The translations under genes were made by a program, and so were the position numbers. The notes beneath the pieces are model-generated. The model had not been told where the DNA came from and did no database searches. It saw nothing but the letters and a program-made list of their open reading frames with translations. Of a stretch of 64,000 nt of DNA, positions 914-31,359 are shown one piece after another. The DNA is from a bacterium. Its GTDB lineage: Bacteria; SAR324; NAC60-12. The stretch is from the NCBI GenBank assembly GCA_965205865.1, contig CBDBHR010000030.1, positions 1,191,866 through 1,255,865 on the forward strand, in the 5' to 3' direction. Numbering within the stretch: the first letter of the stretch is position 1; each line of letters begins with the position of its first letter.

Positions 914-2097
914 CTAGTGTATTGCCTGTTTAATACATTGTATTATTGGTCATTTGGTAGACAGGTTTGAGTTTGTTGATAATTTCTTCGGCAGTTTTAG
1001 TCCAGACATAGGGTTTTGGGTTGCGATTGTGTGTCTCGATGTAACTATGGATGGCTTCGGTCAACTCGAGCACGCTTTTGAAGGCGCCTCGTCGAATCCG
1101 TTCTGCAGTGATCTTGCCAAAAAAGCGTTCCACCATGTTCAGCCATGAGGAGGAAGTAGGAATGAAATGCGGGTGAAATCGCGGGTGTTTTTTGAGCCAT
1201 TCTTTCACCTTAAGATGTTTGTGGGTGGCGTAATTGTCCAGGATCAAGTGTACCTGCAGTTGCTTCGAGGTAGTCTTGTCAATAAGACGCAGGAAGCGCA
1301 GATACTCTTGGTGTCGGTGCCGTTTTTCACAGCGAGCGAGCACTTCCCCTGTCTGCGTATTCAAAGCAGTAAACAGACAGCAGGTGCCATGACGGATATA
1401 ATCATGAGTTCTGGTGCCATTGCGCCCTGGTTTCAGTGGCAGACCTGGCTGGGTGCGATCGAGTGCCTGGATTTGTGATTTCTCATCGACGCTCAAGACC
1501 AGCGCTTTCTCAGGAGGATTCATGTACAAACCGATGACATCTTTCAGTTTCGCAGTGAAATGCTTATCATGCGACAACTTAAATGTTTTTTCCAGATGAG
1601 GCTTGAGGCGATGGGCCTTCCATACTTTACCGACGGTTGTCTTGCCTACGCCAACTGCCTTGGCCATCGATCGCGTGCTCCAATGGGTACGGTCCTCAGG
1701 CTTCTCTTCAATGGTTTTCTTCACAATCTCCTCGATTTTATCCGCTCCATAAATGCGTGTCCTGCCAGGCCGCGGATCATCATTGAGACCTGTTATTCCT
1801 TTTTCAACAAAGCGCCGTCGCCACTTTCCAACGGCATTACCGCTGGTTCCAAGCGTTTTGGCAATTTCTTGATTCTTAAGGCCATCAGCAGCCAACAGGA
1901 TGATGCGCGCACGACGAGTGTCTCGCATCGCTCCGGTATGACGGCGTGCGGTTTTGCCCAATTCATCCCGTTCTTCCCGGGTCAGTTTTATACTTGGTGC
2001 TTTTCTCATGCTGTCTCCATATATGCAAAAAAAAGGACAGCTCGTAGTATAGCAAACCAAGGATTTTTTTACACATTAATAAAAGAGCGACACACTA
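914..2097 (-). mobile_element. IS630-family insertion sequence, full length, TA-flanked
   Basis: Single transposase ORF with HTH + DDE. Ends are ctagtgtattgcctgtttaatac... / ...gagcgacacactag (imperfect TIR, terminal CTAGTGT/ACACTAG). Both ends are shared with a second, deleted copy at 17197-17658. TA at both junctions, as expected for IS630/Tc1. Confidence 0.8.
930..2009 (-). CDS. IS630-family transposase (HTH + DDE)
   Basis: MRKAPSIKLTREERDELGK...LLAADGLKNQEIAKTLG (HTH) ... LVLSVDEKSQIQAL ... HLILDNYATHKH ... WLNMVERFFG. This is the classic IS630/Tc1 transposase architecture. Start taken at MRK rather than the upstream extension. Confidence 0.85.
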   Translation of the reverse strand: MRKAPSIKLTREERDELGKTARRHTGAMRDTRRARIILLAADGLKNQEIAKTLGTSGNAVGKWRRRFVEKGITGLNDDPRPGRTRIYGADKIEEIVKKTIEEKPEDRTHWSTRSMAKAVGVGKTTVGKVWKAHRLKPHLEKTFKLSHDKHFTAKLKDVIGLYMNPPEKALVLSVDEKSQIQALDRTQPGLPLKPGRNGTRTHDYIRHGTCCLFTALNTQTGEVLARCEKRHRHQEYLRFLRLIDKTTSKQLQVHLILDNYATHKHLKVKEWLKKHPRFHPHFIPTSSSWLNMVERFFGKITAERIRRGAFKSVLELTEAIHSYIETHNRNPKPYVWTKTAEEIINKLKPVYQMTNNTMY

Positions 2098-2122
2098 GCA
2101 TAGGGTGCTGCTCACCTTGAGG

Positions 2123-5523: not shown

Positions 5524-7254
5524 CTAGAAGCCCATTTCCTTTTTGAGGTCTTGATCAATCCAGATGCGGGCATACACGGGGCCTTCTCGCATCAATCCCA
5601 GGAGGATTTCACCATCAAAACCGCCAATGTAAGGATGCCAGACTTGAAAATTCGCATGGGGCAGCAGCGACACTTGATAATGCTGTTCGGTCCAACGCCG
5701 GGTGACCGCCTTCATGGCTTTGACAAAGTCCTCATGAGTCTTGGCGTTGATTGCGGCGTCCATCAAAATTTCCATGGTGGGATCTTTCAATAAGTTATAG
5801 ATGCAACAGGAGGTGGTTCTGGGATCGAATTGCAGCGTTGCCCACAAGAGCGGGTCAATATTCACTGCGGCCCAACCGTAGTGGAGTTCATAACCTGCAC
5901 GGGTTTCGGAGATCATCGTCCAAAAATCCCCCCACTCCATCTCGATGATCTCGGCCTCAATGCCAATCTCGCGAAGATAGCCCGTAGCGATCTGGACGAT
6001 GTTCCAATCCTGTTCCTGCCGCGCGGCATGGATGGTGGTCTTGAATCCGTTGGGGTAGCCCGCATCGGCCAGGAGCCGCTTGGCTCCTTCCGGGTTGTAC
6101 TCATAAGCTTCCCGGATATGCTTCGGCATCTCACTCAAGGGAGTAAAAAATTCCGCAGCTGATTCTCCCAGGGCCGGATAGATGATAGGAGGCACATGCC
6201 CCTGGTAATATTCCGAGGACATCTCCTCGTAATTCATGGCCATCTGCATCGCTTTACGGACCCTTTGGTCGGCCCAGGGATGGTTCGGATCGTCAAACAA
6301 ATACCCGATTGCCCAGGATTCCAAAACCCAGCTCTTCACCTGAATGTCCGGGTGGGTCTTTTTGAGCAGATTAAATTCCTCAATGTTGAGCGCAGCGATG
6401 TTGCCTTTGCCAATATGGTCGACCTGACCGGTGCGAATCGCAGCCATGCGGGTGGCTGTCTCTTTGATGATCAGCCAGCGGACTTGATCCAAAAAGGGCA
6501 GCTTGTACTGTGGATCCAATTCATAGCTTCCCCAGTAGTCCGGATTTTTCTCCCAGGTGACCGAACTGCCTTCTTGATAATCTTTGAGCATCCAGGCCCC
6601 TGTGCCGACTTGTTCTTTCCAATCGGTCAAGTCACCATGTTCTTTCGGGAAGATTTTGTCCGCATTAGACTGCGTGAGAAAAGTATTTTCGAGATGGATG
6701 CTGGGCTTATGCTTGATGACCACCGTATACTCATCTCTGGCCTCAACAGATTTGATACCATAGGGATCCCACGTTTGTCCTCCCTTGGAAGCTTCCGTAA
6801 AACCCGACCCTAGCCCCAGGAGCCGGTGAAAGGAGTAGACGACGTCCTTCGCCGTCATTTCTCTTCCATTGGTCGGGGGTCTGTTATGAAAGTGAATCCC
6901 TTTGCGCAGGTAAAACACCATGGTTTCAGGATCTTCTATTTCATAACGTTCGGCCACCCAAGTGGTACCGCACGCCTTGACCGAATAGTCTATCGTCCAG
7001 GGACACTGATCGCGGGGTTTGCTCCAGTCGCCAAAACCGAGTTGCTCATAGACATAGCTGGGTTGCGGGTTTAAATCAATGTGCGGATCCCAACTGGTGA
7101 TGGTATGGCCCACCGTGGTGAACGTCCCTCCATATTGAGGAGTCTTTGTGGCCATCTTCTGGCCCAAAGTGAAAGTGGGGAAGATCAACAGGATCACCCC
7201 CAATGCAATGAAACCATAAATTCGTTTGAACATGAAATTTTTCAGTACAGACAT
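5524..7254 (-). CDS. ABC transporter substrate-binding protein, family 5 (peptide/nickel/opine type), cluster 1
   Basis: Signal peptide, 576 aa. Shares the QYGGTF, KAMQMA and C-terminal WIDQDLKKEMGF signature with the two other SBP paralogs in the window. Confidence 0.85.
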   Translation of the reverse strand: MSVLKNFMFKRIYGFIALGVILLIFPTFTLGQKMATKTPQYGGTFTTVGHTITSWDPHIDLNPQPSYVYEQLGFGDWSKPRDQCPWTIDYSVKACGTTWVAERYEIEDPETMVFYLRKGIHFHNRPPTNGREMTAKDVVYSFHRLLGLGSGFTEASKGGQTWDPYGIKSVEARDEYTVVIKHKPSIHLENTFLTQSNADKIFPKEHGDLTDWKEQVGTGAWMLKDYQEGSSVTWEKNPDYWGSYELDPQYKLPFLDQVRWLIIKETATRMAAIRTGQVDHIGKGNIAALNIEEFNLLKKTHPDIQVKSWVLESWAIGYLFDDPNHPWADQRVRKAMQMAMNYEEMSSEYYQGHVPPIIYPALGESAAEFFTPLSEMPKHIREAYEYNPEGAKRLLADAGYPNGFKTTIHAARQEQDWNIVQIATGYLREIGIEAEIIEMEWGDFWTMISETRAGYELHYGWAAVNIDPLLWATLQFDPRTTSCCIYNLLKDPTMEILMDAAINAKTHEDFVKAMKAVTRRWTEQHYQVSLLPHANFQVWHPYIGGFDGEILLGLMREGPVYARIWIDQDLKKEMGF

Positions 7255-7306: not shown

Positions 7307-7505
7307 GAAGAATTCGGCAAAATCAAGAATTAAAAATTCCCAAAAACCTTCCCCTTTTCTCTGGGGAACGGAGATAAATTACCTCAACTAAAAGGTGGGC
7401 TTCAAGAAAAAAAGAAGAATTCGGCAAAATCAAGAATTAAAAATTCCCAAAAACCTTCCCCCTTTTCTCTGGGGAACGGGGATAAAGTACCCCAACTAAA
7501 GAGAG
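7307..7505. repeat. Tandem direct repeat, ~107-bp unit x2, in the divergent intergenic region
   Basis: gaagaattcggcaaaatcaagaattaaaaattcccaaaaaccttcccc(c)ttttctctggggaacgg.gataaa.tacc.caactaaa occurs at 7307-7395 and again at 7414-7502. Confidence 0.8.
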
Positions 7506-7678
7506 ATGTCAAAAAAAAAAAGAGGGAATTGGGATTGACTATTTTCTTTGATGATTTTATAAAAAAAATTGAATGGGACACCGCCCATCCCCCTTGAAGG
7601 AGTTGGGGGCCGTCTCACTCAAAGATTTCAACATATTCTAGTAAAAGTCAGCAGATACAACCATACAAGGAGAAAACA

Positions 7679-11033: not shown

Positions 11034-12503
11034 ATGATGCGAACAATCGCAATCCATAGAAAAGGTAGATTGGGAGTTCGGCCCCGAAGAAACAATCGGT
11101 TCGTAGGTTTTTTCGGAGTGGCTCTTGTACTGGCAGGGTGCGTTAATGTACAGCCTGAAGGTTCCCACAGGCCGCAGAGGGAGTGGGAAATGCCGCAAGT
11201 TCCCATCACGGTGGAGTCGAAACCTCTCAGGGTGGATACTCGTCCCTGCACCGGTTCATTTATTCCTCGTTATTTGTCTCATGACACCCTCGCAACTTCC
11301 GGCCTGTATGGCTATGTAAAAAGCATCACCCGTGGAATGTCCGGTCGCATTGGATTTTATCTGAGCAATGGGGCAGGTGTGGCATTGGCAGACCTGGACA
11401 ACGATGGTTTCATCGATATAGTCTTACCGGGGTTGCATGCGCCGACCAGCATTTACTGGAACCTGGGGGGGATGAAATTTCGATACGAGCAGCTGGACGC
11501 AAAATTCGCACGGGCGGTCAACGTGGTCGATGTGGATGGCGATGGTTTGCCAGACTTGGTATTCACTCATGTGGCAGGCCCGCCCTCGTTGTGGCGTGCT
11601 GGTGCCGGAGCATCAGGACCGGCATATACGCGTCTTTCAGATGATGAATTCCGCGGCGCCTTCAATCTCTATGCGATCGCTTGGGCGGATTTGGATGAGG
11701 ATGGAGATCTCGATATGGTAGGGGCTTCCTATGATTCGGAACTCAATCAACAAGGTCGCGGTTCAGGTGGGGTGTTCCTCTACATGAATGACGGTGGTGT
11801 TCTCACGCCTTTCCGTCTTTCCACCAATGCCACTGCCCTTGCTCTGATCCTCACTGATCTCAATGGGGATAGACGTCGCGACATCCTGGTAGGCAACGAC
11901 TTCCATCCGGCTGATGAAGTGCTTTTCAACACGCCCGAAGGCTGGATCAATGCGACTCCCTTCACCAGCACCACCACCAATACGATGAGCTTTGCGGAAG
12001 GAGACATCGATAACGATGGGATCCCGGAACTGCTGGCTACCGATATGAAGCCCTACCGTCAGGATGAAGCCATTGCGCATGCTTGGGCTCCGATGCTGGA
12101 AAACGAGCAAGGTTTGGAACCGGGGGACGGGGTGCAAATCGTGGCCAATGTTCTACAATCTCGTGAGCAGGGAGGCTTGGAATTTGTGGATCGTGCTGAA
12201 GAAGTCGGCGTGGACGCCACCGGTTGGAGTTGGTCGGCCCAATTTGGAGATCTGGACAACGATGGATTCCTCGACCTCTATGTCGTCAATGGCATGATTG
12301 CCATCCAACTTTTTGAGCATTTACCCGGTGACGAGTTGGTAGAAGAGAACCAAGCCCTGCGCAACGACGGAACCGGTCATTTCGTACCAGCTCTAGTTAA
12401 ATATCATTTAAAAAAGATTCCCGGAGAGGATCGATCGTTTTCAAGTCCTCCCACGATATTGTTCAATCGATCGGGAACCCTCTCGTTCATTAAAACAACT
12501 TAG
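11034..12503 (+). CDS. FG-GAP/VCBS-repeat lipoprotein (ASPIC/UnbV-like)
   Basis: LAGC lipobox. Six or more DxDGDGxxD-type repeats (DLDNDGFIDIV, VDVDGDGLPDLV, DLDEDGDLDMV, DIDNDGIPELL, DLDNDGFLDLYV). The last ~30 codons are supplied by a dispersed repeat element (from 12411). Confidence 0.7.
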   Translation: MMRTIAIHRKGRLGVRPRRNNRFVGFFGVALVLAGCVNVQPEGSHRPQREWEMPQVPITVESKPLRVDTRPCTGSFIPRYLSHDTLATSGLYGYVKSITRGMSGRIGFYLSNGAGVALADLDNDGFIDIVLPGLHAPTSIYWNLGGMKFRYEQLDAKFARAVNVVDVDGDGLPDLVFTHVAGPPSLWRAGAGASGPAYTRLSDDEFRGAFNLYAIAWADLDEDGDLDMVGASYDSELNQQGRGSGGVFLYMNDGGVLTPFRLSTNATALALILTDLNGDRRRDILVGNDFHPADEVLFNTPEGWINATPFTSTTTNTMSFAEGDIDNDGIPELLATDMKPYRQDEAIAHAWAPMLENEQGLEPGDGVQIVANVLQSREQGGLEFVDRAEEVGVDATGWSWSAQFGDLDNDGFLDLYVVNGMIAIQLFEHLPGDELVEENQALRNDGTGHFVPALVKYHLKKIPGEDRSFSSPPTILFNRSGTLSFIKTT

Positions 12504-12900
12504 CAAAGGCATCATTCTATTACACAAAAACCCAATGTCAACCCCCCAAGGCAAAATAAATGCGGGATTCGCAAAAAAAATAAAAAATCAATAAATCTGC
12601 TCAAATCCGGGGACAGTCAGAAGCCGTTCAGTTCAATAACGTTGAAAAAAGATTCCCGAGGAGTATCCATCACTTCACTTCCTCCCGCACTTATTTTGAA
12701 TCGAACGGGCGGGAACCCTCCCAAGATTTTGTTCAATCGATCAAGCGGGAACCCTTTTCTTCCCTAAAACAACAAGGCATGATTTTAGTACAACAACTAA
12801 CAACGCAGCTTCAAGCCCCCAAAAAAAAAATAAGCGGAGTCCGCGAAAAAAATAAAAAAACCATGAAGGGATCGATTGTTTTTTTAAGTTAGTTGGTCAA
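12411..12900. repeat. Dispersed repeat family, two tandem ~230-270-bp units; an inverted copy set lies at 28863-29110
   Basis: Shared blocks: aaaaagattcccgg..., ttgttcaatcgatc..gggaaccct, ctaaaacaac...atgattttagta, and caaaaaaaataaaaaa. Reverse-complement matches occur at 28863-29110. Confidence 0.7.
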
Positions 12901-13129
12901 GGTTTGGAAGACAACTATGAAGAGAGCGGGGGTACGTTGACCTGAGGAATGAACAGTTGCTTTCATTGGAATTGAAGAGGTGATTCGAGAGGGAGTCTAT
13001 GAGATTCAGATCAAGTTCTCAAATGGATTTCTCTTGAAGAGATTCAGAGATATCTTGAAAACAAAAAAAGACTGAAACGAACCATTTTGAAGTTTCCGGA
13101 GACACTCAGAAAGGATTGGAGCGAGAAAC

Positions 13130-14030
13130 TAGGTAAGCTCATAATTTTCCCTTCCGTTCAAAACTTATCCTTCGCAATAAGCTTACCGGCGAGAACTGTT
13201 CCCATGCGCCACGCAGATAAGGCTTCGAGTCCTCCGGCAATGACTTGCCAGGCTTCTACGCTCTTTGCACTTCGATGGCGCATGCTTCTCCGTTGATATC
13301 CCATTCGGCTCCACGTCGACCGGACATCAGGTGACCACTGGGAATAGCTTCCAGGTGATTGGCAAGAGTTTCCGTCTTGATAAACTGATCAAATCGCGTG
13401 ACTGCTGTTTGCACGAATTGTGAAGTTTGATAACGAACATGAATACGCGCCATCACGTCGAACGCCTGCTCTTTTCTCATATTCTGTACTTTATTGACGA
13501 ATTCCCGGGCAAATCCTTCCTGTTGCAAGTCAATTGTCAGTTCCGTATTCAGGGCAACGGTCACATTGTTTTCCGTCTGCGCCAGTAAGCCTTCTTTTTC
13601 ATGACGTTGCAAAAGCACGTCTTCGGGTGCTAAGATAATAGTTTCTCCATCCAACTCCAATGTCGTCCGTTTGCCATCCCGCAGCCGAAAAATAGCGGAG
13701 GAATCGAGCTCCACAATGGTTCGGGCGACTTGTTTCATGCGAACTCCGAGCTTCGGTCCGAGCACACTGTAATTGGCCTTGGCGCTGTAAGTCACTAAAT
13801 CTTCTTCATTATCAGCCACGACGACTTTCTTGATATTCAACTCTTCCGTGATCAATTCTTCCATGTCGTTCAAAATCGCTACGGCTTCCGGGTCACGGGT
13901 CACCAGAAAAATGCTGGCAAGGGGTTGTCGTATTTTCAATTGATGCTTGTTACGCAAGGCGCGTCCCATGCTGACTGCCGAGAGCACCAATTCCATTTTC
14001 TTTTCGATTGCAGGGTCCCGATATTGGGGT
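13130..14030 (-). pseudogene. ileS: Duplicated 3' fragment of ileS (last ~246 codons plus 3' UTR), detached from the gene
   Basis: Nucleotide sequence 13130-14023 is near-identical to 17660-18550. ORF 13256..13996 equals the C-terminus of the 1044-aa IleRS. Homology stops abruptly at about 14023. Confidence 0.85.
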
Positions 14031-14037: not shown

Positions 14038-15642
14038 TGCGCCAGGAAAGCTGGCAAGAAATAGAGAGTGAAAGTCTCTTACTCGGTAAGGCAGTAACGA
14101 CCCGCCGAGTCCCCGAGTCATGAGTGGTTATTCGCAAGGATAGGCGCTAAGCGTTGACAGGGGAGAACATAGGCTCGGTATTGAGCTCCGAAATCATAGT
14201 CTCAGGCGCTGACCTTGTGGTCTGGTGGGGAAGGCAATATCAACCGAAGGCGTTAGCGTGAGTCTCGGCTGAGCCTGGCGGAGTCAAAGACCCGGTGCAT
14301 GTGTGGAAGTTTCTTGATCGGAACCTGGGAGATCCTGAAGACGACTGTCAACATTCTATTGGTAGTCGGATCGGGAAAATTAATAAATAACCCCGATATC
14401 TACGTCTTCAGGAAGTCGGACAAGTTCGTAGTAGCGTGAGCAGCCGACAAGGCTGTGGATTTTGGAGAGTGAAAGTCTCTCTGTCGTCAGTTTCCCATTC
14501 GGGCGACTAGCATATCCGGTGCGCTTAGCAGGTAACTGCTTTGCGTTCTGCCCGGAAGTAAAAGTCACCGTCTGCTTTGGACGAGAGTCCATAGTGGGAG
14601 CCAACAGGGTGGCGAGCAAACCTGGAGGCCTGAACATTAGTGAATGATTGCAGCTCCGAAAGAGACTTCCGTCGTGAATTGGCTTGACGGTGTGTTGCCC
14701 AACCGCCGACCCGCTCGCTACTCGGGGAAGGCCGAAGTTCCAAGGGAAGTAATGGGAACAGGCACCTTGGAGGGAGCCGGAGTATGGATCCAAGCATCCA
14801 GGGAAAGATCCACAGAGATAACGTCGGGAAGGGCCAACTTCCAGCAGGGACTCGCAATAACCTGCAAGGACCTACCGTATAGGGTAACACCGAAATCGGC
14901 AGGAGGATTTTGGTCTGGCGCATGAGTCCGTATGAGCGATGAAGACCGGGTAACGCTGGTCGAGGGGATGCTTGGACATCTCCCTTTTGGAGGTAACACC
15001 TCTAAAAGGCAAAGGGGCTCTCGGTAAATGGCGGGCATTTCATGAACCACTGCCGAACTTGTGTCGGTCAAGAGTGTCACCACAAAGAATGTCGAGCTGG
15101 AGATCAAATCACTCACTCCAGGGGTGAATGCAGGCGAGTGCTTAAGCTTCGGATTGGGTGGGAAGGGTTTCTGGGGAAACGCTGTTGCTGCCAACCGGAC
15201 TCGGGAAATCCGACCGTCCGGGATGAGAGGGGGGCTTGCGGAAACGTGATGCAGGGTCTGACGCCCTTTTGCCACGAAACCGGAAACGGGGGATACATTG
15301 GAAGTCGTTGACCTAAACATGCGCGCGCCGTATTTCTACCCGGCATGAAGCGGCGAACAATGAGATCATTTGCAGAGAGTAACAATGCAAAGGAAATCAA
15401 CGGAGCCTGTGGAGCAAAGGGACTTGGCTGAGAGGAATTCTGCTTGCCCTCCTGTGTTCGGAACTCAGAGGCCGTAAAATCAGAGAGCGGTTTAAGCAGG
15501 GTGCGCCAAACGGCAACGTTTGAGCGTCTGACTCGAAGCAGGAGCCGGATGCGTTAGCAGCGCACGTCCGGATCTGTACCGGAGGAATGACGAAAGGTGG
15601 CTGGAAACCACTATAAGTCAGTTCTTTACGGTGACTGCATAC
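14038..15642 (+). ncRNA. Group II intron RNA, apparently ORF-less (no intron-encoded RT/maturase); 3' boundary approximate
   Basis: Starts GUGCG at 14038, followed by the GCCAG-GAAA-CUGGC hairpin (DI). The D3-like block ...gggtaacgc...ggcaaagggg resembles Ll.LtrB-type IIA introns. Domain V candidate at 15542-15575: GAGCCGGAUGCG-loop-CGCACGUCCGGAUC with the AGC triad. The D6-like region follows. No ORF with RT motifs exists on either strand. Confidence 0.55.
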
Positions 15643-17196: not shown

Positions 17197-17658
17197 CTAG
17201 TGTATTGCCTGTTTAATACATTTGTATTATTGGTCATTTGGTAGACAGGTTTGAGTTTGTTGATAATTTCTTCGGCAGTTTTAGTCCAAACATATGGTTT
17301 TGGGTTGCGATTGTGCGCTTCGATGTAACTATGGATGGCTTCGGTCAACTCGAGCACGCTTTTGAAGGCGCCTCGCCGTCGCCACTTTCCAACGGAATTG
17401 CCGCTGGTTCCAAGCGTTTTGGCAATCTCTTGATTCTTAAGGCCATCAGCAGCCAACAGGATGATGCGCGCACGAAGAGCGTCTCGCATCGCTCCGGTCT
17501 GACGGCGTGCGGTTTTGCTCAATTCATCCCGTTCTTCCCGGGTCAGTTTTATACTTGGCGCTTTCCTAATGCTGTCTCCATATATGCAAATAAAAAGACA
17601 GCTCTAGTATAGCAAACCAAGGAATTATTTACACATTAATAAAAGAGCGACACACTAG
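17197..17658 (-). mobile_element. Internally deleted IS630 derivative (MITE-like), ~462 bp
   Basis: Both termini are identical to the 914-2097 element, but about 725 bp of the interior (corresponding to ~1090-1815) is missing. The remnant ORF fuses the transposase N-terminal HTH to its C-terminal tail (17052..17522). Confidence 0.8.
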
Positions 17659-17781
17659 GTAAGCTCATAATTATCCCTTCCGTTCAATACTTATCCTTCG
17701 CAACAAGCTTACCTGCGAGAACTGTTCCCATGCGCCACGCAGATGAGGCTTCGAGTCCTCCGGCAATGACTTGCCAGGCTT

Positions 17782-20700
17782 CTACGCTCTTTGCACTTCG
17801 ATGGCGCATGCTTCTCCGTTGATATCCCATTCGGTTCCACGTCGACCGGACATCAGGTGACCACTGGGAATAGCTTCCAGGTGATTGGCAAGAGTTTCCG
17901 TCTTGATAAACTGATCAAATCGCGTGACTGCTGTTTGCACGGATTGTGAAGTTTGATAACGAACATGAATACGCGCCATCACGTCGAACGCCTGCTCTTT
18001 TCTCATATTCTGTACTTTATTGACGAATTCCCGGGCAAATCCTTCTTGTTGCAAGTCAATTGTCAGTTCCGTATTCAGGGCAACGGTCACATTGTTTTCC
18101 GTCTGCGCCAGTAAGCCTTCTTTTTCATGACGTTGCAAAAGCACGTCTTCGGGTGCTAAGATAATAGTTTCTCCATCCAACTCCAATGTCGTCCGTTTGC
18201 CATCCCGCAGCCGAAAAATAGCGGAGGAATCGAGCTCCGCAATGGTTCGGGCGACTTGTTTCATGCGAACTCCGAGCTTCGGTCCGAGCACCCTGTAATT
18301 GGCCTTGGCGCTGTAAGTCACTAAATCTTCTTCATTGTCAGCCACGACGACTTTCTTGATATTCAACTCTTCCGTGATCAATTCTTCCATGTCGTTCAAA
18401 ATCGCTACGGCTTCCGGGTCACGGGTCACCAGAAAAATGCTGGCAAGGGGTTGTCGTATTTTCAATTGATGCTTGTTACGCAAGGCGCGTCCCATGCTGA
18501 CTGCCGAGAGCACCAATTCCATTTTCTTTTCGATTGCAGGGTCCCGATAGCGTCTCCGGACTTGGGGAAAGTTCGCCAGGTGCACGCTCTCTTCATCTCG
18601 TTCGTTTCGCAGATTGCGGTAAATTCCTTCGGCAATAAAGGGCACAAAGGGTGCGATCACTTTGGAGAGCTCCACTAAGACCTGATAAAGTACCGCATAG
18701 GCTTCCTGCTTGTCTTTTCCCTGTCCCGCCTTCCAAAATCGGCGGCGGCTGCGTCTAATATACCAATTGGTCAACAAGTCGATGAAGCCCACGAAAGGAG
18801 CAACGGATTTATTCAAATCGTAGGCGTCCATGCTGGCTCTCACTGTTTCGATCAGTCCCTGCAATTTGGACAATATCCAGCGATCCAGGGGATTGGAGGG
18901 CATGCTCAGTATTTCCCCGGAGGGCTGCCAGCGGTCGATAGCGGCATAGGTGGTCAGAAAGGCCAGAGCATTCCAAAGGGGCAGCAAAATAGAACGGGTG
19001 GTGTCCACCAGTCCTTTTTCCGAAAACCTGAGATCGTCTCCGCGTACTGCCGGGGAATTGAGCATGTAGAGACGAATGGCATCCGCTCCATATTGGTCCA
19101 ACATGTTGATAGGATCCGGATAGTTTTTCAGTCGTTTGCTCATTTTTTTACCATCTTCAGCCAGGACGAGTCCGTTGACGATGACATTGTGAAAGGCCGG
19201 TTTGTTGTACAATGCCGTCCCGACGACGACCAGAGAATAGAACCAGCCTCTTGTTTGATCCAACCCCTCACAAATAAAATCCGCAGGGAAATTGGCGTCA
19301 AATCTTTCTTTGTTTTCAAAAGGGTAATGTTCCTGACCATAGGGCATAGAGCCGGATTCGAACCAACAATCGAGCACTTCGGGAATCCGCTTATATATTT
19401 TGTCATTTTGAACTATCACCAGATCGTCCACCAAGTGTTTGTGCAAATCTTCCACTTTTTGTCCGCTCGCTTCTTCCAGTTCTGCCACGCTACCGAAACA
19501 GAGACAATCTCCATCCTCACTCTTCCAAATCGGCAATGGGGTTCCCCAGAAACGATTTCGACTGATGGCCCAGTCTCTCGCATTTTCCAACCATTTGCCA
19601 AAACGTCCATCCCGGATGTGCCCCGGTACCCAATGAATGGTCTGATTATTTTGCACCATCTGGTCTTTGATTGCTTCCACCTTGACGAACCAGGTCGAGA
19701 TGGCTTTATAGATGAGGGGGGTGTCCGTTCGCCAGCAGAAGGGATAACTGTGTTCGATGGTTTCGTGTCTGAGAATTTTGTTCTTGTCTTTCAAATAGCG
19801 GATGATCGTTTTGTCGGCCGCCTTGATATTCAACCCTGCCAGGAATCCCATGTAGGATTGAAAATTTCCGTCATCGTCCACCGGGTCGAACAGGGGTAAA
19901 CCTTCCCGCAGGCCAATCCGCAAGTCATCTTCACCAAAGGCTGGCGCTTGGTGGACAATGCCGGTTCCACTTTCATCACTGATATAATCGTCGACCAGCA
20001 CCCGCCATACCCGGCTGCTGTCCACTCGTCCAATGGCAAAGTCAAACGGTGGATGATAAGTTTTGTTCCGCAAATCGCTGCCTTTCAAGGCGTCAAGCAC
20101 TTCATATTCACCGGCTTGCCAATAAGCAGGTATGCGGTTGGTTGCCAGGTAATAGTTTTCTCCACTGGCCTTTTCCCTGATTTTGACGTAATCTATTTCC
20201 GCTCCGACACAGCATGCCAGATTTGCGGGGATGGTCCAGGGAGTGGTGGTCCATCCTAAATAATAAGTGTTTTCCTCATCAGTCGCCTGGCATTTGAAAG
20301 TAATCGAAGGATCCTGCGTCTCCTGATAGTTGAGGTTGGCTTCGAAATTGGAAAGAGGAGTTGAAAGCCGCCAGGAATAAGGCACCACTTTTCTGCCTTC
20401 GTAGATGAGATTCTTCTGCCATAATTGTTTCATCACCCACCAAACAGATTCCATGTAGGAGCGATCCATGGTTTTGTAATCGTTGTCAAAATCTACCCAA
20501 CGGGCCATACGATCCACGGTTTCCCGCCATTCCCTGGTGTATCGTAATACGATTTTGCGACATGCTTCATTGTAATTCCCTATACCAAATTCGATGATAT
20601 CCGGACGCCCTTCTAATTGGAGCGCTTGTTCCACCTCAAACTCGACCGGCAGTCCGTGGCAATCCCAACCAAAACGCCGTTCCACTCGATGGCCTCGCAT

Positions 20701-21411: not shown

Positions 21412-23919
21412 ATGTCGCAAGAAGATCGATATTCCGAGGTAAACACCCCCATCCAAATTCCCATGCTGCCCATGAGAGACATTGTGGTTTTCCCCCGCAT
21501 GACCGCGCCTTTTTTCATCGGGAGAGCCCCCTCCATGGCTGCCTTGGAAAAAGCTCTGGCAACCGATCGCCGGGTTTTTGTAGTAGCGCAGCAGGATCCC
21601 ATGATTGAATCACCCTCTGCGAAAGATTTGTTCCGGATGGGGACCATAGGCCAGATCCTCCAGATCATGCGTCTACACAATGGCACCATCAAAGCCCTGT
21701 TCGAGGCCAAAACTCGCGGCATGCTGATTGAAGCCAGTCTGACAGGTTCTTTTTATTCGGCACTTGTCGAACCCCTCCCGGAAGCCGTGTTTCATACTCC
21801 GGAATTGGTTGCATTGAGCAAAAATGTCCGGCATGAGTTGAAACGCTATCTCAAAGAAGTCAAAAAGCACACTGAACGTATTGAAAAGCTGGCCCTGGAT
21901 AAGGAAGAACCCTGCCACCTGGCCGACCGCATTGCGCCGCTATTGAACATGGATCTGAAGAAAAAACAGGAACTCCTGGAAATTTCAGATGCTCAAAGAC
22001 GACTGGAAATCGTTTACGAGCGGATGCTGGAAGAAAATGAATTGAAAAAAGTGGAGCGCAAACTCAAAGAACGCGTCCAAGGGCAAATAGGCAGAACTCA
22101 AAAGGAATACTATCTCAACGAACAAATCAAAGCTATCCAAAAAGAGCTGGGACAAGGAGAAGACGGAAAAGCGGAAATTGAAGAATACACCAAAAAAGTC
22201 GCAGACACCCCGCTTTCCAAGGAAGCCGGAGAGGTGGCTGTAAAGGAAGTAAAAAAACTGAAAATGATGCAACCGATGTCGGCAGAGGCCAATGTGGTGA
22301 GGAATTATCTGGATTGGTTGCTGGGCATGCCCTGGGGTGAAAAAACCGAAGATCATTTTGAATTAGGAGATGCCGAGAAAGTTCTCGACGTCGAGCATTA
22401 TGGTTTGAGAAAAATAAAAGAGCGGATTATTGAATATTTAGCGGTTGCGCAGAAAGTAGGACAGATGAATGGTCCGATCATTTGTCTGGTGGGGCCTCCG
22501 GGTGTGGGGAAGACCTCTCTTGCCCGCTCAGTCGCCAAAGCGCTTGGCAGAAAATTCGTACGCATGAGTCTGGGAGGGGTGCGGGACGAAGCAGAAATCA
22601 GGGGGCACCGTCGTACTTACATTGGCGCTCTTCCCGGAAAAATCATTCAGTCGGTCCGTAAGGCGAAAAGCACCAACCCTCTGATGCTGCTCGACGAGTT
22701 GGACAAGATGACCTATGGAGTTATGGGCGACCCTGCTGCCGCCTTGTTGGAAGTGTTGGACCGGGAACAAAACCACTCTTTCATGGATCACTATCTGGAG
22801 ATTGAATTCGATTTATCCGATGTCCTTTTCTTTTGTACCGCCAACGTCGACCAAAATATCCCTCTCACTTTGAAAGATCGGATGGAAGTCATCACTTTAT
22901 CCGGATACACCGAATTGGAAAAAGAGCACATCGCCGCACGGCATTTGATTCCCAAACAGATTGAAGAAAACGGATTGAAAAAGGAGCAGATCAGGTTCCA
23001 GCGTAAAGGATTGACAGAAATCATCCAGCGCTACACGCGAGAAGCCGGGGTGCGGGATCTCGAACGCTCCATTTCCAAGGTCTGCCGCAAAGTAGCCCGC
23101 CAGATTGTACAAAAGCATGGGGCTAAAAACCCCTCCCCCGGCCCCTCCCTCAAGGGGAGGGGAGAACTGATCGATAAAACAATTGTGGTGACGGAGAAAC
23201 GAATTCACGATTATCTGGGAGTTCCATGTTATAAACACAAGGAAATCGCAGAGAAAAATGAAATTGGAACCGCGTGCGGACTGGCCTGGACATCGGTAGG
23301 TGGTAAATTGCTCACCAATGAAGTGTGCCTGATGAAGGGAAAAGGCAATCTGAAATTAACGGGGCAATTGGGCGAAGTGATGAAAGAATCCGCAAAGGCC
23401 GCTTTGAGCTATGTGCGCAGCAATGCGAATATGCTCGGAATTTATTCATCGGTCTTTCAAGAAACCGACATCCATATCCATGTTCCGGAAGGTTCCGTTC
23501 CCAAAGATGGTCCATCGGCTGGAATTACCATGACCACCTCCTTGATAAGCGCCTTCACCAGCATTCCTGTGAGAAAGGAGGTTGCCATGACCGGAGAAAT
23601 CACCTTACGGGGAAGAATTTTGCCCATTGGTGGACTGAAAGAGAAATTGTTGGCTGCCAAACGGGGAGGAGTTCAAACCGTCTTGATTCCTGATAAAAAT
23701 GAAAAAGACTTGGTAGAGATTCCGGTTGAGATCAAAAAAGAGTTGACGATTGTCCCTGTCACTTTTGCGGAGGATGCCTTGAAAGTGGCGTTGGAACGTC
23801 TACCAGTTGCCGTGGAAGATCCTCCGAAGGAAGAAGAAAACGCCCGTGAAACTGCAACCAACGTGATTGCGGAGGAATCTTTCACTGAGCATGAAGTCCC
23901 CAGTTTTCCTCACAATTAA
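21412..23919 (+). CDS. lon: ATP-dependent Lon protease (endopeptidase La)
   Basis: N-terminal Lon domain, Walker A GPPGVGKTS, and protease S-K dyad context PKDGPSAGIT...KEK. Contains a 15-aa insertion derived from the palindromic repeat at 23125-23168. Confidence 0.95.
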   Translation: MSQEDRYSEVNTPIQIPMLPMRDIVVFPRMTAPFFIGRAPSMAALEKALATDRRVFVVAQQDPMIESPSAKDLFRMGTIGQILQIMRLHNGTIKALFEAKTRGMLIEASLTGSFYSALVEPLPEAVFHTPELVALSKNVRHELKRYLKEVKKHTERIEKLALDKEEPCHLADRIAPLLNMDLKKKQELLEISDAQRRLEIVYERMLEENELKKVERKLKERVQGQIGRTQKEYYLNEQIKAIQKELGQGEDGKAEIEEYTKKVADTPLSKEAGEVAVKEVKKLKMMQPMSAEANVVRNYLDWLLGMPWGEKTEDHFELGDAEKVLDVEHYGLRKIKERIIEYLAVAQKVGQMNGPIICLVGPPGVGKTSLARSVAKALGRKFVRMSLGGVRDEAEIRGHRRTYIGALPGKIIQSVRKAKSTNPLMLLDELDKMTYGVMGDPAAALLEVLDREQNHSFMDHYLEIEFDLSDVLFFCTANVDQNIPLTLKDRMEVITLSGYTELEKEHIAARHLIPKQIEENGLKKEQIRFQRKGLTEIIQRYTREAGVRDLERSISKVCRKVARQIVQKHGAKNPSPGPSLKGRGELIDKTIVVTEKRIHDYLGVPCYKHKEIAEKNEIGTACGLAWTSVGGKLLTNEVCLMKGKGNLKLTGQLGEVMKESAKAALSYVRSNANMLGIYSSVFQETDIHIHVPEGSVPKDGPSAGITMTTSLISAFTSIPVRKEVAMTGEITLRGRILPIGGLKEKLLAAKRGGVQTVLIPDKNEKDLVEIPVEIKKELTIVPVTFAEDALKVALERLPVAVEDPPKEEENARETATNVIAEESFTEHEVPSFPHN
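23125..23168. repeat. 45-bp GC-rich palindromic repeat, copy 1 (inside the lon CDS, in frame)
   Basis: aaaaacccctcccccggcccctccctcaaggggaggggagaactg, with the cccctccctc/ggggagggg hairpin. Translates as NPSPGPSLKGRGEL within Lon. Confidence 0.75.
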
Positions 23920-28459: not shown

Positions 28460-28862
28460 TAGTTCGAGTTAATGCATGTTTCTATGAAATGCTCATTAGA
28501 GAATTTGAGGGTTACACTTTGAATAGTTTATTTTATTTATCTTTGTTTTTTTGTCAAGTTGCGTTCGAGGGAGTTTAATTGAAAAATAACTATTGCATTT
28601 CCCCTCATTCCTCTTATCTGAAAACCGTTGCTCCCTACCTTCCTGTTATTTCGCCGCTCAAAGGAATCTTTCAGACCTCTACCCTGAAAAACTTAAAAAA
28701 CCAATAACCTTCTTCATTGAGTTTATGTTTTTTTAATCTCTTAGGGTCTGATTCCCCGCAGTCTTGCTGCGATGAAAATGATTTACCAATAAATACGCCG
28801 CTGCTTGCCGCAGGGTAGTTCATTTTTTTCGCGAATCCTGTTTTTTTAGGCTATACGTTGTA

Positions 28863-29110
28863 TAGTAGTGCTAAAATCATGACTTGTTGTTTCAGGGAAG
28901 AAGAGGGTTCCCGCTCGATCGATTGAACAATGCCGTGGTAGGGCGTGAAAACGATGGATCCTCCCCGGGAATCTTTTTTCAACATTTTTGTATTTTAGGC
29001 TTGATCCTGAGGATCCTAAGTAGTAGTAGTGTTAAAATCATTTCTTGTTGTTTTGGGAAAGAGAGGGCGTGAAAACGAGTCATCCCCCCCGGGAATCTTT
29101 TTTCAACTTT
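28863..29110. repeat. Dispersed repeat family (same family as 12411-12900, opposite orientation), two tandem sub-units
   Basis: tagtagtgctaaaatcatgacttgttgtttcagggaagaagagggttcccgctcgatcgattgaacaa...gggaatcttttttcaac is repeated with variation. Confidence 0.7.
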
Positions 29111-29602
29111 TTGCTATTCTTATGAACTCGAGAGTGACGAATTCTTGTCAGTCAATGAAATTAAAATCACTGACTGATACACATTCTCATTTCCGCGAAA
29201 GCGCATTGGATCAACTTAAGAGTCCGTATATTATTTCAGTTACTTGGAGTCAAAAATAGAATTCCACACCCCTGGAAAGATGGGCCAGGGGAGCGGGAAT
29301 CCGTAGTGTTTTCATAGGCTAATGAAGACTGGATCCCGCATCAAGTGCGGGATGACACGAGAATTCGTAACTCAAGAGCAATGAGAGTAGGCGCGATGAG
29401 ACGTAGAATCAATAGCAGGCAGTTAACTTCTGACAAAAGAGGAATTATGAAAGATAAAATCAAAAAAAATATCAATCAACTTCTGAAAAAGGAGAAATTA
29501 TGCGACATCCAATAAATCAAATCCAATTCACTTCTAATAAAGAAGAAGCAATGGAACATCCAAGGAATCTTAACCCAAATCAAAGTGAAAGAGGAGGAAT
29601 CA

Positions 29603-31359
29603 TGGAAAAAAGTATAACCAGAAAAATCAATTCATTGTTGTTGACCCTCATCCTGATGGTGACCGTCCTGTGGGTCGGGTCGGTCGTTGCTGCTGAGAAA
29701 GAGATGGTCACCGACCCCACCACCGGTAAAATGGTGAGCGCACCGGAGTATGGCGGGACATTCAGCTGGGGCGATGCGCTCGAGCCTCCGCACTGTGACC
29801 CCTACCTGCATGGCCATGGGCCAAGGGTCATCGATGAAGTTGGAGAGAAGCTGGGCCTCGGGAACTGGGCAGTAGATCGGGCCGAACATAGCTTTTCAGA
29901 CCCGTGGATCCCTTCCCATTTCATGACAGGGGCGCTGGCGGAAAGCTGGGAGATGGCTGACCCACTGACCTATGTCTTCCACATTCGCCAGGGCATTCGC
30001 TGGCACGACAAGGCGCCGATGAATGGTCGGAAGTTCATTGCCCAGGATGTCGTCTATAACTTTCACCGTTATACAGGTACGGGCAGCGGCTTCAGCGAAC
30101 CGAGCGCCGGTGCCGGCAATCTCGCCTCAATACCATTCGAATCGATAACGGCCAGAGACGATGCGACGGTTGTCTTCAAACTGACGAAGCCAAAGGTAGA
30201 CCTGCCTGACGTTCTCCTGGTCGACTGGTATGCGTGGATATTACCCCCTGAGGTCATCGAGCAGCATGGCGACCTGACGGACTGCGACAACATGGTCGGC
30301 ACCGGGCCCTATATGCTGACCGAATGGGTCAAGGGCAGCTCCCTGACCTATTCCAAGAATCCTGACTACTGGGACTTCGACGAAAAATACCCGCAGAACC
30401 GCTTACCCTACATCGACCAGATAAATCGGTTGATCATGCCGGATAAGGCAACATCGCTGGCGGCGCTGCGCTCGGCCAAGCTCGATTACGTCGGTCAGCC
30501 TGGCATCAATCAGTTACAAGCGTCCCAGGTAGAGAGCCTCGAGCGCACCAACCCCGAAATCGTAGTATGGCCGTGGGCCTTTCGGTCGGAGACCTCCGCT
30601 GCATTCAACGTGCGCCACCCGTCGCCCTTTCAAGACATCCGGGTGCGTAAGGCCATGCAGATGGCCATTGATATCGAAACCATTAACAAGACCTACTTTG
30701 GGGGCTTTGGAATGACGACGCCCCAAGGGATTATAGGGGATGGTCTGAAGGGGTACTTCGTCCCATTCGAAGAGTGGCCCGAAGAGACCAAGAACGTCTT
30801 TACTTATGACCCGGAAGGGGCGATGCGGCTTCTGGCTGAAGCGGGCTATCCCAATGGCTTCAAGGCCGTCCATAACCCTTTGCCCTCATGGGGGCTGGGC
30901 TATCAAGAGATAGTCGTTGAATACTGGGCTGCGATTGGCGTTGACGTAGAGATCAAGACGCATGAAGGCACTCAGTTGACGGGATTAATAACTGACGGTT
31001 CGTATGAAGGCATGACCTTTATGGATCTCGGCAATGACACCTCGCCTCCCTTGCTGCTAAACCGGCTTCAAATCGGGGCGGTGTGGGGCCGCACCGGACA
31101 CCAGGACCCCGTGATGCAGTCCAAGGTTGAAGCCGCTATGGCCGCTCCCACCCTCGAGGAGCAGCAGCGGCTGACCGCGGAGGCAGATTTGTACATGATC
31201 GAGCAGCATTGGTACATATGGGGTCCCAAAGTTCCCCAATTCGACGCGATCCAGCCGTGGGTGATAGGTTTCAACGGTGAAATCTTTGTTGGCAACTCAC
31301 ATGCGCCGTTCTCCCGTCTGTGGATCGATAGTGCGCTGAAGAAAGAAATGGGGCATTAG
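29603..31359 (+). CDS. ABC transporter substrate-binding protein, family 5 (cluster 2)
   Basis: GAGGAGG Shine-Dalgarno 6 nt upstream of the MEKS start; signal peptide; EYGGTF, KAMQMA and WIDSALKKEMGH signature. ~60% GC versus ~45% for the backbone. Confidence 0.85.

What the first reader, a model, noticed from the sequence alone, without database searches (positions are those of the whole stretch)
12411..12900. Dispersed ~250-bp repeat family that donates the C-terminus of the FG-GAP lipoprotein
Two tandem units lie at 12411-12900 and an inverted pair at 28863-29110. They share blocks ttgttcaatcgatcgggaaccct, ctaaaacaac..gattttagta and poly-A/ataaaaaa tracts. The first unit overlaps the last ~30 codons of ORF 11034-12503, so the repeat supplies that protein's terminal residues and stop codon. 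Both loci lie in long intergenic regions just upstream of or beside the imported ABC clusters and ileS.
Basis: seen in the sequence. Interest (0 to 1): 0.5.

Follow-up and report, generated by a model that had tools for sequence, protein, structure and literature searches.

The report
Repeated promoter-leader cassette truncating a gene
A lineage-specific repeat of about 200-260 bp, most likely a portable promoter plus structured leader that normally sits in front of nutrient-uptake genes, has landed by rearrangement against a truncated FG-GAP/CRTAC1 gene and supplies its last 36 codons and stop; this is a real feature of a known, fairly ordinary kind.

Summary
The repeat is real. There are four units: U1 12394-12633 and U2 12628-12885 (written on +), and U3 28800-28996 and U4 29020-29112 (written on -). 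Locus 2 is a tandem direct pair on the opposite strand, not an inverted pair.

Near-identical strains match the window up to base 12393 and then diverge. Their FG-GAP/CRTAC1 gene continues for about 137 more residues, including a UnbV_ASPIC domain.

It carries a T-rich tract, a TTGACA-N16-TAGAAT or TGnTAAAAT promoter, and a leader that holds 0-3 copies of a 37-nt hairpin module; where modules are present a long helix with G·U pairs encloses them.

Exact-pattern scans of public genomes and metagenomes found the family only in one related, unclassified MAG. There it lies directly upstream of non-homologous genes (SBP_bac_5, Peripla_BP_4, a ricin-type lectin), always pointing at the gene and ending at the same base.

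Best reading: a putative mobile promoter/leader cassette, possibly MITE-derived. Locus 1 is an orphan copy at a rearrangement junction. There is no Rfam match, covariation is too thin to judge, and transcription is untested.

The parts
12394..12633 (-). Unit U1 (type A). The sense strand is minus. Its gene-proximal end is truncated: it stops at ...ATATTTAACTA(G), about 33 nt short of the normal terminus ...CAGAGACCTGAATAGTTAC.
   Evidence: nhmmer E=2e-56; alignments; 91% identical to the unit upstream of the SBP gene in strain contig L023.
12514..12541 (-). Sigma-70-like promoter of U1: TTGACA, 16-nt spacer, TAGAAT (11 of 12).
   Evidence: scan_promoters_terminators. The same perfect TTGACA box is present in L007, L008, L009 and L010a.
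12445..12482 (-). 37-nt hairpin module of U1 (GGGUUCCC-GAUCGAUUGAACAAUAUC-GUGGGAGG).
   Evidence: Covariance model R1, 60.2 bits; pair counts.
12628..12885 (-). Unit U2 (type B, no good -35 box). It carries two modules (12679-12720 and 12721-12756) and lies upstream of U1 on the sense strand.
   Evidence: nhmmer E=4e-64; R1 hits of 59.3 and 35.1 bits. The U2/U1 junction is conserved at 90% in L010 of MAG OZ242383.1.
12395..12503 (+). The 36 codons plus stop (12501-12503) that U1 adds, read on its antisense strand, to the truncated FG-GAP/CRTAC1 ORF.
   Evidence: ORF list; ortholog alignments end at residue 453.
11034..12393 (+). The part of the FG-GAP/CRTAC1 gene that is shared with its orthologs. 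The homology breakpoint is at 12393/12394; base 12394 is ambiguous.
   Evidence: blastn against L001-L006; sequences; Pfam shows FG-GAP_3 only and no UnbV_ASPIC.
28800..28996 (+). Unit U3 (type B). Its sense strand is plus, pointing at the SBP gene. It has an extended -10 TGCTAAAAT at 28869-28877, a module at 28903-28944 and GGGAATCTTTTTT at 28967-28979.
   Evidence: nhmmer E=2e-59; R1 hit of 61 bits; sequence.
29020..29112 (+). Unit U4, a short type B unit with no module and no 5' arm of the long helix. It has TGTTAAAAT at 29030-29038.
   Evidence: nhmmer E=1e-22; alignments; its fold is no better than shuffles (z=+1.1).
28746..29420 (.). Strain-specific segment that contains U3 and U4. The flanks are shared with strain contigs L025 (up to 28745) and L023 (from 29421).
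   Evidence: blastn.
29575..29700 (+). RBS plus signal-peptide-coding module of the SBP gene (29602-31359). It is shared at nucleotide level with the SBP paralogs of L007 and L010.
   Evidence: Alignment A4. The full-length proteins are only 41-46% identical to the window SBP's homolog set. Orthologs P0002 and P0003 have different N-termini.

Best explanation
The units are copies of a lineage-specific promoter-plus-leader cassette. It fits the definition of a 'putative mobile promoter' and may be MITE-derived.

Read 5' to 3' on that strand, a full unit has:
- a T-rich tract;
- a sigma-70-type promoter (TTGACA-N15-18-TAnAAT in type A units; only TGnTAAAAT in most type B units);
- a small hairpin;
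- a long helix (GGGUUCCC pairing with GGGAAUCU, including G·U pairs) that encloses one to three copies of a 37-nt hairpin module (the short unit U4 lacks both);
- a U-run;
- a fixed terminus, ...CAGAGACCTGAATAGTTAC, which in the related MAG lies about 25-160 nt before the start codon of whatever gene follows.

Its likely role is to supply transcription, and a structured 5' UTR, to the downstream gene, mostly ABC-transporter binding proteins. In the window, U3 and U4 occupy this position in front of the SBP operon at 29602. U2 and U1 are an orphan tandem pair. A strain-specific rearrangement joined a 5'-truncated leader of U1 to codon 453 of the FG-GAP/CRTAC1 gene, so the gene now reads 36 codons of U1's antisense strand and stops.

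Shown: the repeat itself, the breakpoints, the truncation, the promoter consensus, the orientation and the sharp terminus. Inferred: actual transcription, mobility, and any role of the RNA fold.
For: Repeat and copy number.

Truncation.

Promoter: U1 scores 11 of 12 on the minus strand. A perfect TTGACA box with an 11-of-12 promoter lies on the sense strand in 5 of 9 units, and no antisense promoter was found in any window unit. The -10 block TGCTAAAAT is aligned across copies.

Orientation and position: in L007, L008, L009, L010, L023 and window locus 2 the sense strand points at the next gene's start. The unit ends at AGTTA(C), followed by five different flanks.

Non-homologous downstream genes: SBP_bac_5, Peripla_BP_4 and Ricin_B_lectin. 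The 150 nt upstream of the L007 and L009 start codons are 90.2% identical over 123 nt. This meets the operational definition of a putative mobile promoter in PMC3488235.

Association with rearrangement: both window loci lie in strain-specific segments. Copies are interrupted by an IS5-type transposase end (L023) and by a MITE (L008). L009 has a terminal inverted repeat of about 27 nt, 560 bp apart.

Strand-specific fold: sense strands fold at -28 to -36 kcal/mol with z-scores of -1 to -3.2; the four antisense strands folded gave -20 to -25 kcal/mol with z-scores of -0.2 to -1.7. In the module hairpin 90.7% of cells are paired, against 39-69% in slid controls, and 4 cells show compensatory changes.

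Narrow distribution: exact-pattern scans hit only MAG OZ242383.1 among the genome collection. All 12 metagenome hits were chance matches.
Against: No expression data exist.

Four of nine units (U2, U3, U4, L010b) lack a usable -35 box.

In the window the nearest unit ends 490 nt before the SBP start codon, and locus 1 has no downstream gene at all.

No target-site duplication, no autonomous parent element and no empty site were found. Window copies have no terminal inverted repeats.

The sample is only about 10 units from two genomes, so the orientation bias (5 or 6 loci) is weak statistics.

The structure pairs are nearly invariant, so covariation cannot support or reject the fold. I also derived the tested structure from these same sequences.

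Among SBP_bac_5 paralogs the similarity continues into the RBS and signal peptide. Part of the spread could therefore be gene duplication or gene conversion rather than mobility.
Confidence: 0.55

Rival explanations
1. The units are passive relics of segmental duplication and gene conversion among the 5' regions of paralogous SBP/ABC operons. On this view the element is not mobile and was not selected as a promoter. The repeats simply mark where paralogous upstream regions were copied and later broken by IS-driven rearrangement.
For: The window holds three paralogous ABC clusters (D2-D4, D7, D9, D11, I1, I2). The RBS plus signal-peptide region is shared by the window, L007 and L010 SBP genes at about 80-88%, although the full-length proteins are only about 42-46% identical. 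The U2/U1 tandem junction is inherited: it is the same in L010.
Against: The same unit, ending at the same base, also precedes a Peripla_BP_4 gene and a ricin-type lectin gene that share nothing with SBP_bac_5. Most SBP paralogs in the window lack the unit.
Confidence: 0.2
2. The conserved part is a functional structured RNA. It would be either a cis-acting regulatory leader (protein- or ligand-responsive, with hairpin modules as binding sites) or a small RNA gene. Its spread would reflect wiring of a nutrient-uptake regulon.
For: Strand-asymmetric folding with invariant G·U pairs in the long helix. The module hairpin is kept through U-A/C-G and A-U/U-A/U-G exchanges; only 2 of 500 shuffles reach the observed score. 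Four of five downstream genes encode periplasmic binding proteins and the fifth a secreted lectin. The leader ends in a U-run.
Against: There is no Rfam match at E-values up to 10 on either strand. No canonical terminator or RBS-sequestering hairpin was found. Module number varies from 0 to 3, and MFE folds differ between copies. The downstream genes use different substrates. The copies are too similar (80-90%) for real covariation, and the shuffle test is known to be exceeded by related sequences.
Confidence: 0.15
3. The FG-GAP/U1 junction at 12393/12394 is an assembly chimera. On this view the truncation is not biological.
For: Five other assemblies of near-identical strains match up to 12393 and then differ, three of them showing the complete gene. 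The region is rich in repeats and IS elements. The window's own truncated protein is not on record in the gene-position index.
Against: A chimeric join normally occurs inside a shared repeat, and the FG-GAP side of the junction is unique sequence. The same region differs among the other strains too (L001 versus L002/L003), so real rearrangement here is common. Read-level data could not be examined.
Confidence: 0.07

Closest known systems
Putative mobile promoters (PMPs; Matus-Garcia et al. 2012, NAR 40:10032, PMC3488235)
   Same: Highly similar non-coding DNA (at least 50 nt at 80% identity or more) lies within 150 nt upstream of non-homologous CDSs in one genome. L007 and L009 share 90.2% over 123 nt in front of SBP_bac_5 and Peripla_BP_4 genes.
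   Different: PMP is an operational class, not a sequence family, and this sequence is not one of its published families as far as I could test. In the window itself the units lie outside the 150-nt zone (locus 2) or have no downstream gene (locus 1). The units also occur as tandem pairs and contain a variable-number internal module.
Promoter-bearing MITEs such as Neisseria Correia elements, and IS elements with outward-facing promoters (comparison from my own knowledge; the reviews PMC9330008 and PMC6382973 came up but I did not read them)
   Same: A short non-coding repeat with a defined terminus, found next to gene starts. It carries a sigma-70-type promoter that reads outward across the terminus, and it sits at strain-variable sites. 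One copy (L009) has inverted termini 560 bp apart.
   Different: No target-site duplication and no cognate transposase were found, and most copies lack terminal inverted repeats. There is no sequence similarity to Correia elements; I did not test for one of their features, the IHF site. The promoter is internal and complete rather than a hybrid formed at the junction.
REP/BIME/REPIN-type intergenic repeats
   Same: Lineage-specific, hairpin-forming modules of variable copy number in intergenic DNA.
   Different: REPs are about 20-40 nt palindromes, usually found after genes and in hundreds of copies. Here the whole unit is about 200-300 bp with a promoter, lies upstream of genes, and is present in few copies in the DNA available.
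Riboswitch or leader RNAs upstream of ABC-transporter operons
   Same: The position (5' of binding-protein genes) and a stable, strand-specific predicted fold.
   Different: There is no match to any Rfam family, no recognisable expression platform and no phylogenetic breadth. The copies are recent duplicates inside one lineage.

Membership tests
Putative mobile promoter (PMC3488235) | At least 50 nt at 80% identity or more between regions within 150 nt upstream of start codons in the same genome | tested here: met
   L007 versus L009 (both from OZ242383.1): 90.2% over 123 nt. Not met for the window's own two loci, which are 490 nt from a start codon or have no downstream gene.
Putative mobile promoter (PMC3488235) | Downstream CDSs (and upstream CDSs) are not homologous | tested here: met
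   Downstream: SBP_bac_5 versus Peripla_BP_4 versus Ricin_B_lectin. Upstream: Gp49-like versus DAP_epimerase.
Putative mobile promoter (PMC3488235) | Actual promoter activity | not testable with these tools
   Only consensus matches are available: 11 of 12 in 5 of 9 units on the sense strand.
MITE (non-autonomous DNA transposon) | Terminal inverted repeats | tested here: inconclusive
   L009 has GTAACTATTCAGGT at 6339(+) and 6885(-), extendable to about 27 nt. L007 has only a weak match. Window copies have none.
MITE (non-autonomous DNA transposon) | Target-site duplication flanking the element | tested here: not met
   The flanks of the L009 element (..AGGTG | GGATG..) share at most 2 nt. No other complete copy was available.
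MITE (non-autonomous DNA transposon) | A parent IS with the same ends, and empty sites in related strains | not tested
The strain contigs differ at both window loci, but by larger rearrangements rather than clean presence/absence.
Known RNA family (Rfam 15) | Score at or above the gathering threshold of any covariance model | tested here: not met
   No relevant hit, even at E-values up to 10, on either strand.
Cis-regulatory RNA / riboswitch (generic) | Conserved secondary structure supported by covariation | tested here: inconclusive
   RNAalifold predicts 17 pairs with 1 compensatory change. In the module hairpin 90.7% of cells are paired, with 4 compensatory cells; 2 of 500 shuffles reach the observed score. 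There are only 9-10 closely related sequences, and the structure was derived from them.
Cis-regulatory RNA / riboswitch (generic) | An expression platform (intrinsic terminator or RBS-sequestering helix) | tested here: not met
   No terminator-like site was found on the sense strand. The U-run follows only the long-range helix.
Small RNA gene | Own promoter plus own terminator, independent of neighbouring genes | tested here: inconclusive
   A promoter is present but no canonical terminator. In L007, L008 and L009 the terminus lies only about 25 nt from the next start codon, which argues for a 5' UTR rather than a separate gene.
CRTAC1 / ASPIC-UnbV family (the truncated gene) | FG-GAP repeats followed by a C-terminal UnbV_ASPIC domain (PF07593) | tested here: not met
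   The window ORF has FG-GAP_3 and FG-GAP only. Homologs carry PF07593. The alignment ends at residue 453 of 489. It is therefore a truncated member.

The most novel reading that the evidence does not exclude
The units would encode a new strand-specific structured leader RNA: a long G·U-containing helix enclosing one to three copies of a 37-nt hairpin. It would act as a regulatory platform, for example a binding array for an RNA-binding regulator, and would spread as a promoter-plus-leader (and, for SBP genes, plus signal-peptide) cassette. In that way it would wire nutrient-uptake and surface genes of an uncultivated, SAR324-related lineage into one regulon.
Probability: 0.12. Interest if true: 0.6.

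Novelty: new member of a known kind. Interest (0 to 1): 0.3.

Why it matters
For annotation, ORF 11034-12503 should be flagged as a truncated CRTAC1-family gene whose last 36 residues are repeat-derived, not as an intact lipoprotein.

For biology, the family is a clear small example of promoter and 5'-UTR reuse in an IS-rich, uncultivated genome. The same approximately 270-bp cassette, ending at the same base, precedes unrelated transporter and lectin genes. It also marks strain-variable junctions.

If the promoter and leader are active, the cassette would explain how horizontally acquired ABC clusters become expressed in this lineage. It would also predict an antisense transcript running into the 3' end of the truncated gene. 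None of this changes a general principle.

Tried and rejected
- **Chance or low-complexity repeat:** rejected on shuffle statistics and nhmmer E-values.
- **Coding repeat:** the 41-44 aa ORFs inside U2 and U3 change frame between copies because of indels. Rejected on that basis; I did not look for ribosome-binding sites.
- **Known RNA family:** four Rfam searches, including relaxed thresholds, gave only noise. The weak CrcZ hits (E = 0.07 to 4.7) are A-tract artefacts.
- **Intrinsic terminator at GGGAATCTTTTTT:** the scan found none on the sense strand.
- **Wider distribution:** the genome-collection pattern scan hit only one MAG. The degenerate metagenome scan gave 12 hits, all failing the unit profile.
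- **More diverged copies:** nhmmer and covariance model R1, run over 194 kb of lineage DNA, found nothing beyond the known units.
- **Simple inversion between the two inverted loci as the origin of the FG-GAP junction:** rejected, because the missing 3' part of the gene is nowhere in the window.
- **L010 SBP as ortholog of the window SBP:** rejected (about 42% identity). The true ortholog in that MAG, P0003, has a different N-terminus.
- **Exact-protein look-ups that found nothing:** the window's FG-GAP, ileS and M16 peptidase proteins, and P0002.
- **L024** (an SBP 83% identical) is an unrelated GC-rich genome without the unit.
- **Taxonomy:** protein clusters carry no names. The only indication is that the nearest named ileS relatives are SAR324 cluster MAGs at 67-74% identity.
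Full report
**1. The observation**

The sequence at 12394-12885 and at 28800-29112 contains four related units.
- The repeat finder links the two loci through seven inverted pairs of 37-79 nt at 72-89% (I12, I14, I17-I19, I21).
- The block TTGAAAAAAGATTCCCGG occurs four times at up to 1 mismatch, against 0.28 expected from shuffles.
- A profile built from the units finds exactly four hits in the 64 kb, with E-values from 4e-64 to 1e-22.

The limits are U1 12394-12633, U2 12628-12885, U3 28800-28996 and U4 29020-29112. U1 and U2 lie on one strand, U3 and U4 on the other. Locus 2 is therefore a tandem direct pair that is inverted relative to locus 1; it is not an 'inverted pair'. U4 is short (about 93 nt) and lacks the TTGTTCAATCGATC block, while U2 carries that block twice.

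**2. The C-terminus of the FG-GAP gene**

The neighbouring 2-hydroxyacid dehydrogenase is encoded, with an identical sequence, on eight public contigs.
- Five of the six contigs fetched match the window at 99.3-99.9% up to base 12393 (one, L006, runs out at 12384). The sixth, L004, ends earlier, at window 11525.
- None of their downstream sequence occurs anywhere in the window.
- In those strains the gene is 538 aa as called (590 aa from the upstream start) and carries a UnbV_ASPIC domain.
- A database search found 2244 homologs. Nearly all of the 120 listed are 520-640 aa with PF07593.
- BLASTP to the 92% ortholog (P0122) and to the 74% ortholog (P0123) ends at residue 453, '...GHFVPA'.
- The window ORF has FG-GAP repeats only.

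The gene is therefore truncated at 12393/12394 and loses about 137 residues. It reads 36 codons and a stop out of unit U1. The caveat is that this is an accidental tail on a broken gene.

**3. Distribution**

An exact-pattern scan of 185,579 species-representative genomes hit only one genome, MAG OZ242383.1 ('bacterium', 4.26 Mb), at four loci, L007-L010. A degenerate scan of the metagenome collection gave 12 hits, none of which matches the unit profile.

The nearest named relatives of the window's ileS are SAR324 cluster MAGs at 67-74% identity. Within the limits of exact-pattern scanning, the family is confined to one uncultivated lineage.

**4. Anatomy and the informative strand**

Aligning nine units in reverse orientation shows, 5' to 3':
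- GGGGGTTGACA;
- a -10 block, TGCTAAAAT;
- a short hairpin (CACUAA/UUAGUG in 'type A' units);
- AGAGGGUUCCC;
- zero to three copies of a 37-nt module, GGGTTCCC(N0-4)GATCGATTGAACAAnATC..GGGAGG;
- GUGAAAACGAUnGAUCC;
- CCGGGAAUCUUUUUU;
- in complete copies, AACUGAACGGGUUUUUCAGAGACCUGAAUAGUUAC.

The promoter scan scores U1 at 11 of 12 on the minus strand (TTGACA, 16-nt spacer, TAGAAT). Applying a similar rule, with the spacer widened to 15-19 nt, to all units gives a perfect TTGACA box and 11 of 12 on the sense strand in U1, L007, L008, L009 and L010a. The 'type B' units U2, U3, U4 and L010b have no acceptable -35 box; U3, U4 and L010b keep TGn plus a -10 hexamer, and U2 keeps only TAAAAT. No antisense promoter appears in any window unit.

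Sense strands fold at -28 to -36 kcal/mol with z-scores of -1 to -3.2. The four antisense strands that were folded gave -20 to -25 kcal/mol with z-scores of -0.2 to -1.7. The asymmetry comes from G·U pairs in a 12-bp long-range helix (AGAGGGUUCCCG with CGGGAAUCUUUU).

RNAalifold recovers that helix and an inner helix (GAUCGAUUG with CGAUnGAUC), but 16 of its 17 pairs show no compensatory change. For the 37-nt module taken as a hairpin, 90.7% of cells are paired, against 39-69% when the partner is slid. Four cells show changes on both sides, and 2 of 500 shuffles reach the observed score. This is suggestive only: the sequences are close relatives and I derived the structure from them.

No Rfam family matches either strand, even at E-values up to 10. 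No canonical terminator was found on the sense strand.

**5. Context**

In the related MAG the sense strand always points at the next gene.
- In L007 the unit's last base is 28 nt before the ATG of an SBP_bac_5 gene.
- In L009 it is 25 nt before a Peripla_BP_4 gene that is followed by an ABC ATPase.
- In L008 it is 25 nt before a secreted ricin-type lectin gene, and a 220-bp MITE has inserted inside the unit.
- In L010 a type B then type A tandem precedes another SBP_bac_5 gene.
- In strain contig L023 (98% identical to the window), a U1-like unit (91% to U1) sits in front of the same SBP gene that starts at 29602 in the window. That unit is cut at CTAAG by the end of a DDE_Tnp_1_2 transposase gene.

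After the terminus ...AGTTA(C), the five flanks are all different.

The 150 nt upstream of the L007 and L009 start codons are 90.2% identical over 123 nt, while the genes downstream and upstream are unrelated. This meets the operational definition of a 'putative mobile promoter': at least 50 nt at 80% identity or more, upstream of non-homologous CDSs (PMC3488235).

One copy (L009) has the terminal 14-mer repeated in inverted orientation 560 bp away, extendable to about 27 nt. It has no convincing target-site duplication. Window copies have no such inverted ends.

**6. The two window loci**

Locus 2. Strain contig L025 is collinear with the window up to 28745 and then carries a DDE_Tnp_1_4 transposase gene instead. 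L023 is collinear from 29421 onward. U3 and U4 therefore lie in a 675-bp strain-specific segment in front of the SBP operon, with their sense strand pointing at it, but 490 nt from the start codon.

Locus 1. The strain-specific segment runs from 12394 to 13118, between the FG-GAP breakpoint and a 902-nt duplicate of the ileS 3' end. On the sense strand the order is U2 then U1. The U2/U1 junction (AAATCCGGGGACAGT|CAGAAG) is the same as in L010, at 90% over 286 nt, so the tandem predates the split of the two genomes. U1's leader stops about 33 nt short of its normal terminus, exactly where FG-GAP homology ends.

The simplest reading is a deletion or illegitimate recombination with one end in FG-GAP codon 453 and the other in U1's leader. 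A simple inversion between the two loci is excluded, because the missing 3' part of the gene is not in the window. I could not examine reads, so a chimeric assembly remains possible but unlikely: the FG-GAP side of the junction is unique sequence.

**7. Interpretation**

Best explanation (about 0.55): a lineage-specific promoter-plus-leader cassette that has spread to the front of unrelated genes and marks rearrangement-prone sites. At locus 1 it is an orphan that fortuitously terminates a broken gene.

Rivals:
- Passive relics of duplication and gene conversion among SBP 5' regions (about 0.2). This is supported by the shared RBS and signal-peptide module. It is contradicted by the Peripla_BP_4 and lectin cases.
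- A functional structured RNA (about 0.15).
- An assembly artefact at the junction (about 0.07).

**8. Novelty**

Repeated promoter-bearing intergenic elements, and genes truncated at repeat junctions, are both well known. This is a new member of a known kind. Two unusual details are the variable-number hairpin module inside a G·U-containing long helix, and the extension of the shared cassette into the signal peptide for some SBP genes. Interest 0.3.

Noticed in passing
window 29575-29700; L007 6050-6200(-); L010 5600-5760(-): The RBS and the first ~20 codons (signal peptide, M-x-KS-x-TRKI-x-SLLLTLILM) of three SBP_bac_5 genes are about 80-88% identical at nucleotide level. The full-length proteins are only about 42-46% identical, and the 90-91% orthologs of the window SBP (P0002, P0003) have different N-termini. 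This looks like exchange of a 5' expression and export cassette between paralogs.
   Followed up: partly
window 7332-7532 (minus strand is sense): A different tandem repeat (two units of about 100 nt, 76% identical) lies just upstream of the SBP gene 5524-7254(-). Each unit has TTGACA/TTGAAG-N17 promoter-like boxes and a CCCC..GGGG hairpin. This is the same 'tandem promoter module in front of an SBP gene' design, but in an unrelated sequence.
   Followed up: partly
window 13122-14023 vs 17645-18550; 14071-14293: The last ~900 nt of ileS, plus about 135 nt of its downstream flank, are duplicated at 97-98% identity, giving a 246-aa DUF5915 fragment ORF at 13256-13996(-). A group II intron D1-D4 match (168 bits) lies next to the duplicate. 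The strain contig L025 is arranged differently here.
   Followed up: partly
window 32470-32515(-), 32765-32810(+), 32832-32877(+): Three copies of the Acido-Lenti-1 RNA motif (Rfam RF01687, 51-54 bits) lie between two permease genes of the ABC operon.
   Followed up: no
window 36750-36985, 37735-37984, 48382-48595; L008 700-900; L023 3801-4004, 7853-8081, 8824-9042: A MITE-like family of about 220-250 bp with terminal inverted repeats TAACCTGAGTTCGA. One copy has inserted inside a promoter unit in L008.
   Followed up: no
window 914-2098 and 17222-17644: An IS630-family element (DDE_3 transposase 930-2060, ends CTAGTGT...) and an internally deleted copy downstream of ileS. About 15 nt of the same end (GAGCGAgAaACTAG) precede the ileS duplicate at 13104-13118.
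   Followed up: partly
window 59042-59160: A CCAGTTC heptamer is repeated about 10-12 times upstream of the second SBP paralog (ORF 59355-61328).
   Followed up: no
window 59355-59500; L009 6200-6314(-): A segment that reads as (R)EIVENxxSGTKAGFKA and contains the hairpin AAACCUG...CAGGUUU recurs at the 5' ends of two unrelated binding-protein ORFs. It occurs twice in the window. It may be non-coding rather than part of the proteins.
   Followed up: no
window 29421-29568; L023 757-905: A segment of about 148 nt lies between the unit terminus (AGTTAC) and the shared RBS module. It is absent at the same place in L007 and is flanked by TTA on both sides, so it may be a small insertion.
   Followed up: no
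L007 6494-6811; L002/L003 13348-13372; window 12605-12617: The 18-mer AAATCCGGGGACAGTTAC occurs as an inverted pair 300 bp apart in L007, singly in L002/L003, and as a 15-nt piece at the U1/U2 junction. It shares GTAACT.T with the unit terminus GTAACTATTCAGGT. It may be the end of a related element.
   Followed up: partly
window 23125-23169, 23922-23966, 25312-25356: A 45-nt GC-rich palindromic repeat (CCCCTCCCC...GGGGAGGGG) occurs three times around the genes at 23976-25288; it resembles REP elements.
   Followed up: no
L024 (ERZ24894577 contig, 660 kb): An SBP 83% identical to the window's lies in a clearly GC-rich genome with different neighbours. This is consistent with horizontal transfer of this ABC cluster between unrelated bacteria.
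   Followed up: no
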